A stretch of DNA of 64,000 nt from Escherichia coli (GTDB taxonomy: Bacteria; Pseudomonadota; Gammaproteobacteria; Enterobacterales; Enterobacteriaceae): NCBI RefSeq assembly GCF_041248615.1, contig NZ_CP158426.1. One strand, written 5' to 3'. Below the pieces are notes generated by a model, which was given only the letters and a program-made list of their open reading frames with translations, did not search any database and was not told the DNA's origin. This document shows, one piece after another, positions 19,765 through 31,356 of the stretch (positions within the stretch are counted from its first letter, which is position 1; every line of letters starts with the position of its first letter). Position numbers and translations under genes: made by a program.

Positions 19765-19981
19765 CAGCTTTTCCTTACAGAGGGTGAATAAAAAAGCCGG
19801 TACCCACAAATGTGGATACCGGCAGGTACAAAACAGCATGGTCAGATAAAGTGTTTTTTCCCGGACATAAATGCTTCCCCTCTCTCATCCGCCAGAGAAG
19901 TATCAGTCCGTTGTGTGCAATTCCGTTCTGCATGATGAAGAGATTCAGCTGCCTTTTCGCAGGCCATTAACCACTATAAAC

Positions 19982-20017
19982 GATCGATTGTGACGATCGA
20001 TACCTGTTTTATCGATC
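19982..20017. promoter_or_regulatory. cluster of three GATC (Dam) sites upstream of agn43: phase-variation switch (Dam/OxyR)
   Basis: cGATCgattgtgacGATCgatacctgttttatcGATCg, about 220-250 bp upstream of the Ag43 start codon, matching the known agn43 regulatory region. Confidence 0.55.
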
Positions 20018-20136
20018 GTTTTATTCTATTAATAACAAGGCAGCCACGCAAGAGAAACAGGAGGAGTATGAGGGGTTTGTGTCATGTTTTCAGTTGGTTA
20101 ACGCAATGTAATCAGGCATTTCCTCTGGCAGAGTGT

Positions 20137-27262: not shown

Positions 27263-27880
27263 TCAGTTACGGTTACCGTCAACCGTTGTGCGGTATGCCA
27301 GGAGCACGTACTGATCCATCAGATCCGTCAGTGCTGCGTTCTGCTTCTGACGGTCGATGATCCATTCCCCCAGCTCTTTTTCTGATTTCCGTTTCAGGTT
27401 CTCCGTCCAGTCGTCAAGGCTGTTTCCGGTCATTAAATCAAGCCAGCAAAGCCAGACCAGTTTGAGGCGCAACTCCGTGCCACCAAACTGACGGAAGAGG
27501 CTGATCAGTTTATTTGCCAGAGAACGCTGCCTCAGACGTTCACATTCAGACAGCAGAATCCCTTCCAGCATCGGATGATGAACCAGCAGATGTTCGCTGG
27601 TGCATAAGTTCACCACCAGATCATCATCCAGGGGCGGCGTGGCCCGTTTGTCAGAGCCATAAATCAGCCGGTGCAGACTCCGGGGTACGATGGCAATCTT
27701 CGGTTTTTCACCATTGAATGACACCCACCCGGGCGTCAGATTATGGAAGTAGTGGATATTCGGATGACACACGCCCCAGGATACGGCGTGCCGGGTGAAG
27801 CCGGTCAGCCATTTCTGGTAGCTTTCGTGGAGCAGCTCGTAACGGGTCTGATACTGTGGTTTCATTTTCATATTCCTCAC
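27263..27880 (-). CDS. hypothetical protein downstream of alpA
   Basis: 205-aa ORF co-directional with and 79 bp downstream of alpA; no family recognised. Confidence 0.55.
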   Translation of the reverse strand: MRNMKMKPQYQTRYELLHESYQKWLTGFTRHAVSWGVCHPNIHYFHNLTPGWVSFNGEKPKIAIVPRSLHRLIYGSDKRATPPLDDDLVVNLCTSEHLLVHHPMLEGILLSECERLRQRSLANKLISLFRQFGGTELRLKLVWLCWLDLMTGNSLDDWTENLKRKSEKELGEWIIDRQKQNAALTDLMDQYVLLAYRTTVDGNRN

Positions 27881-27958
27881 GGGGGATAACAGGCAGCAGA
27901 GTGCCGCCGGCAGGCCGGAGATTGCGTCTGCTGTGGGCGAAGGGCCAGTGGTTAAAAA

Positions 27959-28165
27959 TTACGGACGGGACTGTGCAATACGCGCCTGCAGCCAGGCTTC
28001 CACTTCACTTTTCAGCCAGCGGGAGCTGCGGCCGAGTTTGATGGGAGCCGGAAAGGCCCCATCCTTGATGAGCTTGTAAAACCACTTATCGGTCAGGCCG
28101 GTCAGCTGAGTGATAAACGTCATATCGACCATCTGGTCATCCATCAGCGAAACTGGGGTGGTCAT
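27959..28165 (-). CDS. alpA: AlpA-family phage transcriptional regulator (MerR-like HTH)
   Basis: 68-aa ORF; ...MTFITQLTGLTDKWFYKLIKDGAFPAPIKLGRSSRWLKSEVEAWL is the AlpA/Prophage_CP4-57_regulator pattern. Confidence 0.7.
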   Translation of the reverse strand: MTTPVSLMDDQMVDMTFITQLTGLTDKWFYKLIKDGAFPAPIKLGRSSRWLKSEVEAWLQARIAQSRP

Positions 28166-28548
28166 AAAAATCTTCTCCGGATGTTGTTAATCTCAGCCGG
28201 CGTTGATGATGAAAACAACGCACCACCTTCACCGGCATAACAACCGGGGAGAAACGTAAAAAATCAGTAGGGGAATATTCCTGCCAGGAGAGAAACTGTT
28301 GTGTACAGGCAATACAGGTTGTCTGTTTTGTCAGTGAAGCCGGTATAAACGGAAGATGATTTTGTGTTGCCGGAATATGGGATGGCGTTTTGCCGTGACA
28401 GGATCAGTATTTTCAGTGATGATTATTACTGTGCAGGGGAGTACCGGAGATAAACCACGCCCTGTACCTGCCAGAGCGGAGGTTTGTATTGACTGAACGG
28501 AAGATAAAGCGAGGTAAACACTGTTGCGGTGAGCGGAGAAGACTGAGA

Positions 28549-29340
28549 TTATTCTCTGTAATTACAAACAACAGTGATCTGATCCGGTTTTTTTACCGTT
28601 ACGGGTTTCCGGGGATCAATTTTATAGACCGGGGTAATGACCACGCCGGAATTTATGGAGAAAAGCGGGATCCAGCAATAAACGTCCGGATATTTCTGTG
28701 TCTCCGGAATACCTTTTGTGCCAGAGGCCATCAGATCTTTAACGCTCACGAAAAATGACTTCCGCAGATCAAAAAAGTACTCGTTATATATCACATCCTT
28801 TGCCAGCAGGATGACTGCATTACCAACAGCCGATTTTACAGGTGTTTCATCAGGTGGATTATCGTGATTGTATATTGTTCTTTCTATATAAATAAAACAG
28901 GCATATTTCGTCTTCTCCCCGGATAGTTGCATCTGGTATTCGCAAATGTCTTTGATATACCGACTTTCAACCCTTCCAATCATCTTATCCCGGCGATAGT
29001 GTCTTTTATGTTTCAGCGCGTACAGAACACCATTTGAACTGTCAAACTCCAGGACACTTCTGGTGAAAAGTTTGTTTTCCCAGATCTCCAGACAATACTT
29101 CTCTGCACTGACGACATTGCGTTTGTGGGGAAGATTCCGTTGATACACTCCATTTAATAAGCGTGACTGCAGTTCGCCTGCAAGTTGATAGTAACAGTTA
29201 ATGTCATTAAGGACAGGTGCTGTGGCGTTGAGTAATGTGTTGATTACCTTAGAGCGCGAAAGTTTGTGGGTATGACAGTACTCATCCACAATTCGCAGTG
29301 TCTCATCACTGGTCATATTGAAAGTTATACGTGTTGTCAT
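28549..29340 (-). CDS. hypothetical protein: N-terminal ribbon-helix-helix-like segment fused to a domain of unknown function
   Basis: 263-aa ORF in AT-rich DNA; N-terminus MTTRITFNMTSDETLRIVDEYCHTHKLSRSKVINTLL has a strand-helix-helix pattern; first gene of a co-directional string (263-aa gene, alpA, 205-aa gene). Confidence 0.55.
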   Translation of the reverse strand: MTTRITFNMTSDETLRIVDEYCHTHKLSRSKVINTLLNATAPVLNDINCYYQLAGELQSRLLNGVYQRNLPHKRNVVSAEKYCLEIWENKLFTRSVLEFDSSNGVLYALKHKRHYRRDKMIGRVESRYIKDICEYQMQLSGEKTKYACFIYIERTIYNHDNPPDETPVKSAVGNAVILLAKDVIYNEYFFDLRKSFFVSVKDLMASGTKGIPETQKYPDVYCWIPLFSINSGVVITPVYKIDPRKPVTVKKPDQITVVCNYRE

Positions 29341-29670
29341 GATGAAGTTTTCTGTTAATCATACTGGTTGATATGCATAACATTTCATAAAAAATACTGT
29401 TAATTCATATAATTGATTTTTTGACTGGTTTTATCCTCGTGTGGTGGAAAGCAGTATTACTGCCACTGTAGTCAGCATAAATCTATCACACAGAACCACC
29501 GAAAATGAAGCATTGCTCAGGGGGAAGCTGCCACTCGTATGAGTTCTCTGAACCATGATAACCAGTATTTTTCGTTTTGGGTGATTTGTTTATCGTTACA
29601 GCTACATACAGTTCATGTACCATTAAAAAATAATAAAGGTTAATTAGTATTATTTATAGAAGTATGTTTA

Positions 29671-29748
29671 TGTAATTCTACCGTGTAAATGAACCCTGTA
29701 ATTCTACCTTGTAAATACACCTTGTAACCAAGTCCTGTAGAAGTCTGT
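29671..29748. repeat. six tandem 13-bp iteron-like direct repeats (consensus TGTAAnTnnACCy)
   Basis: tgtaattctaccg / tgtaaatgaaccc / tgtaattctacct / tgtaaatacacct / tgtaaccaagtcc / tgtagaagtctgtc; tgtaattctacc occurs twice exactly. Confidence 0.5.
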
Positions 29749-30722
29749 CTCATAGAAGTATCTGTGCAGTGATATTCTCTGTAGTAGTACTTGTAACTCT
29801 GTTCTTAACTCTCTCTTCAGTAATGTAGTCCCGCAACACCTGAATATAAATCTGTAATGTTCACACACTGACTGTAACGTGCTTTGTTAAGTAATGTCTG
29901 CTATTTTTTTTCTGTTATTTTTCCTGTTGTTTTCTGTATTTTGTTGTATGGTGTAATAACTATTCTGAACCCGTCATCACCTTTATAGCTAAGAGTATGA
30001 CTTCGCCAGTGTTGATACTGTGGATAACGGTGATTAAGGAATTACTGTTAATGATCTGTTCCTGCAGCTCACCTGATGAGTTTTGGTAGTAATACGTAAA
30101 AGAGTATGCCTCATGTCATTAAAAAGTCTTCCGGAGTGTTGTTTAACCCTGTACCTCTGTTACTCATGTAGTACGTTGCGGAAAGCTACGTTAATTGTAA
30201 TATCTGGTTATGGCGTTATGCCTTCAGTATTAAAAACATCTTTTACCGGAGAAACTGGGAAGTGGAAAGGCTTTCGGGATAACGTCAGGCCATTATGACG
30301 ATATTACGTTAATCACAGTACAAGATAACGAGAGGGTAATGGAATTTTAAACCAGAGTAGTTCCACTGTTGTTCACTGGAAAAAGTGATTTCCCACGCGC
30401 GTTATAAGCTTACTCCAGAGGAGATGGAAGCCTTCAACTCTGCGGTCGATCACCGGCTGGCAGAACTGACCATGAACAAACTTTACGATCGTGTTCCCGC
30501 TTCAGTCTGGAAATATGTTACCTGATAAATGTTTCTGATGAAGTACAGTCGTCACAATGACATCACTTCAGATATTATCTGCGCTGTGATTGACTGTCAC
30601 GTATGCCGTTCTCTGTATGGTTCTGATACCCGGGTGTGGTCCCACTTTCTCTGTGGCGCCCGGGGAGTTGTGAACCTGCACGTCTTCGTGTGATAACGTT
30701 TTCTTCAAAAATTACGCCAGCG

Positions 30723-30756: not shown

Positions 30757-31356
30757 ATGAAGACTTACAACACCAATCCCGGTTACGAAATGGATCCCCA
30801 GCTCCTGACACACTTTAACCAGCATCTGGATTCATTATTCGGGGTATATTCGAAACTGTTACCGTTCAGAATGGATTTTGCTTACCGAAAAAACACCCTC
30901 AGCTACAGATGTGCCTGCAGGTACGCCATGTGCGCGGAGATACTGCGACTGATTAACGAAGTGGGAGAGAAACTGGTCGGGTATGCCTGGGTAATGGAAT
31001 ATACGGAACGTAAAGGGCTTCACATTCATTTTGTGGGCTATCTGAACGGTCAGAGCCACAGGAGTTCGTATCTGGTATCCAGATTGATGGGAGATATCTG
31101 GAGGCGGGTTACCGGGGGGGATGGTTACTACCACTGGTGCCGGTTTAATAAAAATTATCCGGTAAACATTAACCACGTCATTCACTATTCAGATCACAAA
31201 GCGGTGAATGCCTTACGCTATGCCATCAGCTACCTGGCCAAACGAGAACAGAAAGAATGTGGCATCATCCTGAAATGCAGCGGGCTTCCTGAAAAAAGTA
31301 ATCGGGGTCGACCGCGACTGGGCAGCCCCCTGCCGGAGACTTATTCTCTGGTGTAA
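30757..31356 (+). CDS. Gp2-like protein (inovirus Gp2 / YagK-YfjJ family, putative replication-initiator-like)
   Basis: 199-aa ORF; sequence pattern and context (integrase/alpA island) resemble YagK/YfjJ; assignment from memory. Confidence 0.5.
   Translation: MKTYNTNPGYEMDPQLLTHFNQHLDSLFGVYSKLLPFRMDFAYRKNTLSYRCACRYAMCAEILRLINEVGEKLVGYAWVMEYTERKGLHIHFVGYLNGQSHRSSYLVSRLMGDIWRRVTGGDGYYHWCRFNKNYPVNINHVIHYSDHKAVNALRYAISYLAKREQKECGIILKCSGLPEKSNRGRPRLGSPLPETYSLV

What the first reader, a model, noticed from the sequence alone, without database searches (positions are those of the whole stretch)
28549..29340. RHH-like N-terminus fused to an unknown about 220-aa domain, heading an operon with alpA
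The N-terminal 35 residues (RITFNMTSDETLRIVDEYCHTHKLSRSKVINTLL) have the strand-helix-helix pattern of ribbon-helix-helix DNA-binding domains. The rest of the 263-aa protein has no family I recognise. The gene is the first of a co-directional string (263-aa gene, alpA, 205-aa gene) directly downstream of the iteron-bearing non-coding region, and lies in AT-rich DNA. It could be the element's master regulator, or an effector under self-repression such as an abortive-infection or toxin protein.
Basis: partly seen in the sequence, partly recalled or inferred. Interest (0 to 1): 0.6.

Follow-up and report, generated by a model that had tools for sequence, protein, structure and literature searches.

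The report
Self-regulating island DNA-binding protein (YagM family)
This is a real, conserved gene of an E. coli genomic island that encodes a ribbon-helix-helix DNA-binding protein of the uncharacterised YagM family, and it most likely switches its own promoter off through a conserved inverted repeat just before its start codon; it is a useful lead on an unstudied gene, not a new kind of system.

Summary
The 263-aa ORF at 28549-29340 (-) is real. It is intact in 758 of 5,426 complete E. coli genomes, has dN/dS of 0.24-0.36, and has full-length homologues at 21-57% identity in other Enterobacterales and Aeromonas.

The rest of the protein is not family-less. The whole protein belongs to the catalogued but uncharacterised YagM / UCP007319 family (Pfam PF27701). 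Its roughly 185-aa C-terminal domain matches no solved structure and occurs only behind this RHH domain.

New here is a two-half-site element, TTATGCA-N11-WTGMWTAA, at 29355-29380. It is unique in the window and sits just before the start codon in eight lineages. It turned up independently on a 4.1-kb Providencia plasmid.

"Heading an operon with alpA" is an E. coli-specific rearrangement. In the other genera sampled that share this layout, alpA follows the divergently transcribed Gp2-like (YagK/YfjJ) gene.

Best reading: an autoregulated RHH transcription factor of CP4-type islands. Its C-terminal domain has unknown function, probably oligomerisation or sensing. Interest is moderate.

The parts
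28549..29340 (-). CDS of 263 aa, a YagM / UCP007319 (PF27701) family protein (RefSeq WP_002431077.1).
   Evidence: ORF. PGAP names it 'YagM family protein'. It is 25% identical to K-12 YagM over residues 5-257, E 7e-15. All homologues carry precomputed PF27701. dN/dS is 0.24-0.36.
29185..29340 (-). Residues 1-52: ribbon-helix-helix DNA-binding domain (strand 3-9, helix 12-25, helix from 29). It has R4/T6/N8 on the strand and an SRS cap at 28-30.
28567..29106 (-). Residues about 79-258: family-specific alpha/beta domain with no recognisable fold. D191 and G207 are invariant; E125, R154, F190, W223, P225 and P237 are nearly invariant.
29355..29380 (-). Candidate operator TTATGCAT-N10-ATGATTAA: two inverted 8-bp half-sites, ending 14 nt before the ATG.
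   Evidence: Unique in the 64-kb window, with 0.02 expected at up to 1 mismatch. Found once per locus, always just upstream of the homologous gene. Half-sites are 85-92% identical against 39-48% for spacer and flanks. Found independently on plasmid L024.
28458..28478 (-). Weak terminator-like hairpin 71 nt after the stop codon, inside the 383-nt gap before alpA.
   Evidence: The relative L016 has a strong 12-bp-stem terminator at the equivalent place.
27959..28165 (-). AlpA-type excisionase/regulator gene (68 aa). It lies downstream here, but behind the Gp2-like gene in other genera.
   Evidence: Its roughly 100-nt upstream segment travels with it.
27263..27880 (-). 205-aa protein of unknown family that always follows alpA.
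   Evidence: no Pfam match.
30757..31356 (+). Divergently transcribed YagK/YfjJ ('inovirus-type Gp2', Rep-like) gene, the most conserved chromosomal neighbour of the family.
   Evidence: Pfam REP_ORF2-G2P E 1e-4 and YagK_YfjJ_C E 4e-4.
29671..29735 (-). They overlap four sigma-70-like hits that point at the gene.
   Evidence: Copy number differs between strains in units of 13 bp.
30376..30525 (+). Short Hha/YmoA-like ORF (49 aa) inside the supposed non-coding region.
   Evidence: RefSeq annotation. ORF.

Best explanation
The gene encodes an autoregulated ribbon-helix-helix transcription factor of the YagM / UCP007319 family. This family is a backbone component of P4-integrase-type enterobacterial islands (the CP4-6 / CP4-57 kind), here the pheV island.

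**Shown**
- The gene is real and under purifying selection.
- Its first 50 or so residues model confidently as an RHH dimer.
- A 26-bp element of two inverted 8-bp half-sites lies 5-14 nt before its start codon. The element is conserved at that position in relatives down to 21-30% protein identity, while the spacer and flanks drift.

**Inferred**
- Two RHH dimers, held together by the long helix 2 extension and/or the C-terminal domain, bind the two half-sites. They overlap or immediately follow the promoter and repress transcription of the gene itself.
- The roughly 185-aa C-terminal domain has no known fold and is found only in this family. It would provide higher-order assembly, or sense a signal or partner that relieves repression.
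- In the widespread layout the gene sits between the Gp2-like/alpA module and the YfjP-GTPase...CbeA/CbtA array. Its further targets may therefore lie in the island backbone, but no second site was found in this window.
For: **Real gene**
-, with homologues.

**RHH fold**
-.
- CopG and aCcr1 are the best, though weak, sequence hits.
- Several UniProt relatives are already labelled CopG/RHH.

**Operator**
- It is unique in the window.
- It occurs once per locus at a fixed position in the window, L006, L007, L010, L013, L016, L019 and L022.
- A Providencia plasmid that was not used to define the pattern has the same half-sites with a spacer 1 bp longer. A 10/12 sigma-70-like promoter sits directly upstream of them.
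- In L007 the right half-site coincides with a -10-like TATGAT.

**Specificity correlation**
- All members with the strand RITF(N/S) have the element.
- Members with other strand residues lack it (L014, L015), as do members placed behind alpA inside an operon (K-12 yagM, L011, L025).

**Probably its own transcription unit**
- L016 has a strong terminator directly after the gene.
Against: - No DNA binding has been measured.
- The RHH dimer was obtained by artificially linking two copies, and the sequence-profile hits to RHH families are below significance.
- The operator pattern was derived from some of the loci in which it was then counted, so only L024 is a fully independent test.
- No convincing sigma-70 promoter lies next to the operator in the E. 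coli copy. The consensus hits sit 310-390 nt upstream.
- The centre-to-centre distance of the two ATGCAT-like cores (16-17 bp) would put two dimers on different faces of the helix.
- The function of two-thirds of the protein is unexplained.
Confidence: 0.6

Rival explanations
1. The protein is an accessory DNA-binding factor for a neighbouring DNA-processing enzyme: the Gp2-like (Rep/HUH-type) YagK/YfjJ protein, or in the CP4-6 subfamily the YagL serine recombinase. It would mark an origin or recombination site and recruit or stimulate the enzyme, as TraY does for TraI or as CopG is coupled to RepB. Transcriptional control would then be secondary.
For: - A YagK/YfjJ gene lies within one or two genes of the family member in every chromosomal locus with enough flank.
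- The yagM-yagL pair is kept on a three-gene 4.1-kb plasmid.
- The best structural match of the N-terminal model is the relaxosome protein TraY.
- Variable 13-bp repeats lie in the shared intergenic region.
Against: - The conserved inverted repeat hugs the protein's own start codon, 300-1400 nt from the Gp2-like gene.
- The Providencia plasmid has the operator but no Gp2-like gene.
- The window subfamily has no YagL.
- Gp2-like assignment of the neighbour is itself weak, at E 1e-4.
- No nick site or origin has been identified.
Confidence: 0.2
2. The protein is a single-chain toxin-antitoxin or abortive-infection effector. The RHH domain would repress its own promoter and the C-terminal domain would be a growth-arresting or anti-phage effector that is released on a trigger.
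For: - The island backbone is rich in toxin-antitoxin and defence cargo.
- K-12 yagM is strongly silenced by Rho, in a group described as toxic prophage genes (PMC9160355).
- The invariant polar residues D191, E125 and R154 could form an active site.
Against: - There is no match to any PADLOC, PHROGs, Pfam or NCBIfam toxin or defence model.
- There is no phage-borne homologue.
- No partner gene is conserved next to it.
- Cells over-expressing K-12 yagM were recovered alive as H2O2- and HOCl-resistant clones (PMC8228696).
- The family sits on a minimal plasmid beside housekeeping-type genes.
Confidence: 0.1
3. The ORF is a decaying remnant with no present function in this island.
For: - The island is riddled with IS elements and pseudogenes.
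- The start codon has no clear Shine-Dalgarno sequence.
- Several truncated variants exist in databases.
Against: - 750 of 758 E. coli genomes keep at least 80% of the gene.
- dN/dS is 0.24-0.36.
- Full-length ORFs are kept across genera.
- A conserved upstream element is retained.
Confidence: 0.03

Closest known systems
YagM of E. coli K-12 cryptic prophage CP4-6 (b0279; PIRSF UCP007319, Pfam PF27701)
   Same: - Homologous over the whole length: 25% identity, E 7e-15.
- Same RHH plus alpha/beta-domain build.
- Same company of AlpA-like and YagK/YfjJ genes in a P4-integrase island.
   Different: - K-12 yagM sits inside a co-directional run ykgV-yagM-yagL-yagK, with a 35-residue N-terminal extension.
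- It has a different strand sequence (HSVTFK) and no TTATGCA-type operator.
- The window gene is divergent from the Gp2-like gene and has no YagL.
- YagM itself has no known function (PMC11551758).
CopG of plasmid pMV158 and Arc/Mnt-type RHH repressors
   Same: - N-terminal strand-helix-helix with R4/T6 on the strand and an S-x-S cap on helix 2.
- Best sequence-profile hit, though not significant, and a matching fold.
- Predicted autorepression through an inverted repeat at the promoter.
- It is a neighbour of a Rep-like gene.
   Different: - CopG is 45 aa and is co-transcribed with repB (my recollection of the literature).
- This protein is 263 aa with a large extra domain.
- It is divergent from the Rep-like gene, and its site lies next to its own start codon.
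RHH regulators with a C-terminal effector or sensor domain (NikR, WYL1, FitA-FitB complex)
   Same: - N-terminal RHH followed by a domain that assembles dimers into higher oligomers and/or binds a ligand or partner.
- Two separated inverted half-sites, as I recall for the FitAB operator.
   Different: - The C-terminal domain here matches none of these domains (ACT-like, WYL, PIN partner) or any other solved structure.
- No ligand or partner is known.
TraY / relaxosome accessory RHH proteins
   Different: - TraY is a natural tandem RHH in one chain, whereas here the tandem was my construct.
- No relaxase, oriT or conjugation genes are adjacent.

Membership tests
Ribbon-helix-helix (CopG/Arc/MetJ) superfamily | Strand-helix-helix topology at the N-terminus. 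| tested here: met
   AF2 gives helix 12-25 and a helix from 29, with residues 3-9 extended. These become strands in the tandem model at pLDDT above 90.
Ribbon-helix-helix (CopG/Arc/MetJ) superfamily | Dimer formed by an antiparallel two-stranded ribbon, with a fold matching solved RHH proteins. | tested here: met
Ribbon-helix-helix (CopG/Arc/MetJ) superfamily | Significant sequence-profile match to an RHH family. | tested here: inconclusive
   aCcr1 scores E 0.0025, 17.7 bits against a cut-off of 60. CopG scores E 0.8. There is no Pfam hit in the library copy used. Some UniProt relatives are labelled CopG/RHH.
Ribbon-helix-helix (CopG/Arc/MetJ) superfamily | Sequence-specific binding to repeated operator half-sites. 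| not testable with these tools
   Only a conserved candidate site is available.
YagM / UCP007319 (Pfam PF27701; PGAP 'YagM family protein') | Full-length homology to family members, including K-12 YagM. | tested here: met
   BLASTP against YagM gives E 7e-15 over residues 5-257. All 27 database homologues carry PF27701. PGAP uses the family name for this exact protein. No NCBIfam HMM and no hit in the Pfam-A copy available here.
Type II antitoxin of the RHH class | Small protein encoded in a two-gene operon with a cognate toxin. | tested here: not met
   The protein is 263 aa. Its downstream neighbours differ between loci (alpA, YfjP GTPase, YagL, DUF932) and none is a toxin family.
CopG-type copy-number repressor | Short RHH co-transcribed with the rep gene and binding the cop-rep promoter. 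| tested here: not met
   In this subfamily the gene is divergent from the Rep-like gene, and the candidate site is at its own start. The features that define the CopG family are from my recollection of the literature.
Known anti-phage defence proteins (PADLOC) | Match to a defence-system model. | tested here: not met
   There is no hit at E up to 0.1 for this protein or for K-12 YagM.

The most novel reading that the evidence does not exclude
The C-terminal domain is a new fold that senses a signal, such as phage infection, the excised state of the island, or a partner like the Gp2-like protein. YagM-family proteins would then be the missing switch that keeps the conserved backbone of CP4-type enterobacterial islands silent and releases it on cue. 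That backbone runs from the YfjP GTPase through DUF932, antirestriction protein and RadC to CbeA/CbtA. The role would be comparable to a satellite's master repressor.
Probability: 0.12. Interest if true: 0.6.

Novelty: new member of a known kind. Interest (0 to 1): 0.35.

Why it matters
YagM-family genes belong to the uncharacterised 'y-ome' of E. coli (PMC11551758). They sit in the regulatory core of islands that carry adhesins, toxin-antitoxin pairs and anti-phage cargo in about one in seven complete E. coli genomes. A confirmed RHH fold plus a precise 26-bp candidate operator turns an anonymous ORF into a directly testable regulator. It also gives an entry point to how these very common but poorly understood islands control their backbone genes. 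The orphan C-terminal domain is a reasonable target for structure determination.

Tried and rejected
**Searches that found nothing**
- The Pfam-A scan of the protein and of 21 family members found nothing; the local copy lacks PF27701.
- NCBIfam, PHROGs and PADLOC gave no useful family for the whole protein.
- Foldseek against AFDB50 returned family members (ranks 1-25), six weaker hits to 302-333-aa unidentified proteins, and then noise.
- A profile of the C-terminal domain alone found no other domain architecture and no PDB sequence match.
- Rfam found no RNA family between 27800 and 30800.
- A search for further operator copies in the window gave nothing above chance at up to 3 mismatches. 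The half-site alone is also not enriched.
- There is no phage homologue.
- Literature searches found only screen hits and Rho or RNA-polymerase-omega effects on K-12 yagM, with no mechanism.

**Ideas tested and dropped**
- YfjH of CP4-57 as a distant relative was rejected by hhalign.
- yagN as a homologue of the 205-aa ORF was rejected, and ykgV resembles AlpA only marginally.

**Technical limit**
- The first genome-wide locus scan with the 21-sequence alignment failed for lack of conserved stretches. A narrower alignment gave six loci.

Full report
**Where the window comes from.** The 4.5 kb around the finding is 100% identical to E. coli NRZ14408 (NZ_LT599825.1). It lies in an island at tRNA-Phe (pheV) next to the kps capsule genes. 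The island has a P4-type integrase, many IS elements, Ag43, and the usual backbone of YfjP-like GTPase, DUF932, antirestriction protein, RadC, CbeA/CbtA and DUF4942.

**The observation.**
- The ORF 28549-29340 (-) exists, is 263 aa long and begins MTTRITFNMTSDETLRIVDEYCHTHKLSRSKVINTLL.
- An AlpA-type gene and a 205-aa ORF follow on the same strand.
- The gene has 41.9% GC and the upstream region 36.2%, against 50.1% for the window.
- The gene is not a chance ORF.
  - 758 of 5,426 complete E. coli genomes carry it, always on the chromosome, and 750 of them carry at least 80% of it.
  - Nei-Gojobori dN/dS between three E. coli alleles is 0.24-0.36, and it is similar for the N-terminal and C-terminal parts.
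  - Full-length homologues of 21-57% identity occur in at least nine other genera.
- The family is small. Only 39 cluster representatives reach E below 0.001 among 1.84 billion proteins.

**Family.**
- RefSeq names this exact protein (WP_002431077.1) either 'hypothetical' or 'YagM family protein'.
- It aligns with K-12 YagM of cryptic prophage CP4-6 over residues 5-257, at 25% identity and E 7e-15.
- All database homologues carry the precomputed Pfam family PF27701, named UCP007319.
- The Pfam copy I could scan lacks this family.
- YagM has no known function and is listed in the E. coli y-ome (PMC11551758).
- Published data are limited to four observations:
  - very strong Rho-dependent termination upstream of yagM (PMC9160355);
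  - loss of its transcript in an rpoZ mutant (PMC5811629);
  - recovery of yagM over-expression clones in peroxide and hypochlorite resistance screens (PMC8228696);
  - a deletion phenotype in rifampicin-induced persistence (PMC5845583).

**N-terminal domain.**
- Sequence profiles point to RHH families but are not significant: aCcr1 E 0.0025 and CopG E 0.8.
- The match to CopG is visually close: MskRiTfni...iSrSkvIs against MKKRLTITLS...LSKSAMIS.
- AlphaFold2 with a 21-sequence alignment gives mean pLDDT 79.5. Residues 1-11 are extended, followed by helix 12-25 and a long helix 29-62.
- An RHH strand only pairs in a dimer, so I modelled residues 1-52 twice, joined by a 20-residue Gly-Ser linker, with an alignment built the same way.
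- In that model residues 3-9 and 75-81 become strands, and both copies have pLDDT above 90.
  - a long tail of CopG-family antitoxins.
- The RHH reading is therefore supported. The caveats are that the dimer was imposed by construction and that this is a prediction.
- T6, S28 and S30 are (nearly) invariant in the family, and R4 is in its consensus. They correspond to the base-contacting strand and the helix-2 cap of CopG-type proteins. That last comparison rests on my knowledge of the fold.

**C-terminal domain.**
- Residues about 79-258 are predicted as an alpha/beta domain with pLDDT mostly 75-95.
- Foldseek against AFDB50 returns members of the same family from Enterobacterales and Aeromonas, some already labelled CopG/RHH. 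It also returns six weak hits to unidentified 302-333-aa enterobacterial proteins.
- A profile of the C-terminal domain alone retrieves only PF27701 proteins of about 245-290 aa, so the domain is never seen without the RHH. It matches no PDB sequence.
- D191 and G207 are invariant. E125, R154, F190, W223, P225 and P237 are nearly so.
- I could not assign a function to this domain.

**Gene neighbourhood.**
- The dominant layout appears in Citrobacter, Klebsiella, Hafnia, Pectobacterium and Enterobacter. Cedecea and Buttiauxella show the same Gp2-like, AlpA and YagM-like arrangement, but no 205-aa match. It runs:
  - 205-aa gene, AlpA and Gp2-like (YagK/YfjJ) on one strand;
  - a gap of 290-400 nt;
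  - the YagM-like gene on the other strand;
  - directly followed, where the flank shows it (Pectobacterium and Buttiauxella), by the YfjP-like GTPase and backbone genes such as RadC and CbeA/CbtA.
- In the CP4-6 subfamility the order is AlpA-like, YagM, YagL (a small serine recombinase) and YagK, all co-directional.
- The conserved association is therefore the trio of AlpA, a YagM-like gene and YagK/YfjJ, in variable order.
- In E. coli the alpA and 205-aa pair has moved behind the YagM-like gene. alpA brought about 100 nt of its own upstream DNA with it, while the remaining 286 nt of the gap have no counterpart elsewhere.
- The gap holds a weak terminator-like hairpin. In Buttiauxella a strong 12-bp-stem terminator directly follows the YagM-like gene.
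- 'Heading an operon with alpA' is thus a lineage-specific juxtaposition, and co-transcription is unproven.
- The Gp2-like assignment of the divergent neighbour is weak but reproducible: REP_ORF2-G2P E 1e-4 and YagK_YfjJ_C E 4e-4.

**A candidate operator.**
- Inspection of upstream sequences showed a shared element ending 5-14 nt before the start codon: TTATGCA(N), a 10-nt spacer, then (A/T)TG(A/C)(A/T)TAA. In some loci it is a perfect inverted repeat, for example L016 TGTTATGCAT-N10-ATGCATAACA.
- In the window it is TTATGCATATCAACCAGTATGATTAA at 29355-29380 (-). It is the only match in 64 kb at up to 1 mismatch, where shuffles predict 0.02.
- It occurs once in each of 17 fetched loci, always at the same place.
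- Across eight non-redundant lineages the half-sites are 85-92% identical. The spacer is 42% identical and the flanks 39-48%.
- The pattern was defined on these loci, so this is partly circular.
- An independent test came later. A tblastn search of plasmids found a 30%-identical homologue on a circular 4,136-bp Providencia plasmid with three annotated genes.
  - Its upstream region contains AGTTATGCATAT-N7-ATATGAATAACT. These are the same half-sites with a spacer 1 bp longer, ending 10 nt before the ATG.
  - The element lies directly downstream of the best sigma-70-like site in the region, TCAACA-17-TATAAT.
- In Pectobacterium the right half-site coincides with a -10-like TATGAT.
- Every member whose strand reads RITF(N/S) has the element.
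- Members with other strand residues lack it (L014 RINVNI, L015 AVTFSI). So do members located behind alpA within an operon (K-12 HSVTFK, L011 RITITL, L025 RVSFSL).
- This is the pattern expected of a cognate RHH-operator pair used for autoregulation.
- No second site stands out in the window.

**Mechanism proposed.**
- Shown: the gene is real; the N-terminus models as an RHH; a conserved, positionally fixed, two-half-site element lies next to the start codon.
- Inferred:
  - at least two RHH dimers bind the two half-sites and repress the gene's own promoter;
  - the helix-2 extension and/or the C-terminal domain hold the dimers together or respond to a signal;
  - because of where the gene sits in the widespread layout, it may also influence the island backbone or cooperate with the Gp2-like protein or YagL.
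- Weak points:
  - the E. coli copy has no good promoter next to the site, and the only consensus hits lie 310-390 nt upstream inside the 13-bp repeats;
  - the two ATGCAT-like cores are 16-17 bp apart, which is not an integral number of helical turns.

**Rivals.**
- Accessory factor for the Gp2-like protein or the YagL recombinase (TraY-like or CopG-like coupling). The conserved adjacency and the plasmid-borne yagM-yagL pair fit this. The position of the conserved site does not, nor does the absence of a Gp2-like gene on the plasmid.
- Fused toxin-antitoxin or abortive-infection effector. No model or phenotype supports this (PMC8228696).
- Decay remnant. This is contradicted by conservation.

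**Novelty and score.**
- The protein is a new, better-described member of a catalogued but uncharacterised family, and RHH regulators are a very well known kind.
- What this analysis adds:
  - a model-level confirmation of the RHH;
  - the finding that the C-terminal domain is an orphan fold;
  - the correction of the operon claim;
  - a precise, testable operator.
- I score interest at 0.35.

Noticed in passing
window 29671-29735 (also L012, L013, L018): There are tandem 13-bp repeats of the form (A/G)WTTACANGGTNN. The window has five copies and three other E. coli strains have about seven, so copy number varies in units of 13 bp. The repeats create four overlapping sigma-70-like sites aimed at the YagM-like gene. 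No equivalent repeats turned up in the shorter intergenic regions of the three other-genus loci I scanned for repeats (L006, L007, L016).
   Followed up: partly
It is present in some E. coli islands and absent from the annotation of L013.
   Followed up: no
window 27263-28262 versus L006, L019, L020, L022: The alpA and 205-aa gene pair, with about 100 nt of upstream DNA, lies behind the Gp2-like gene in other genera but behind the YagM-like gene in E. coli. This points to a rearrangement of the island's regulatory module. The 205-aa protein has no family in Pfam, NCBIfam, PHROGs or PADLOC.
   Followed up: partly
L024 (Providencia plasmid NZ_CP114799.1, 4,136 bp): This minimal circular plasmid has only three annotated genes: a 381-aa protein with no family, a YagL-like serine recombinase and a YagM-like protein with the same operator. 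It would be a convenient minimal system for testing the family's function.
   Followed up: partly
window 28166-28548: The 383-nt gap between the YagM-like gene and alpA is 95-99% identical between E. coli alleles. That is at least as conserved as the coding sequence (95-96%), yet it has no Rfam match.
   Followed up: no
window 19783-20019 (-): There is an Rfam IS102 RNA match (70 bits, E 1e-9) among decayed fragments downstream of the 205-aa gene.
   Followed up: no
Foldseek AFDB50 ranks 26-31: Enterobacterial proteins of 302-333 aa (Cedecea, Serratia, Kluyvera, E. marmotae, Photorhabdus) give weak fold matches at E 1e-4 to 6e-3. They may be a sister family. YfjH of CP4-57 was tested as a candidate by hhalign and did not match.
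   Followed up: partly
L018 (MAG labelled Collinsella sp., JAIJJM010000108.1): A 7.2-kb contig assigned to a Collinsella metagenome-assembled genome carries the E. coli-type module at 92% protein identity. This is most likely a binning contaminant.
   Followed up: no
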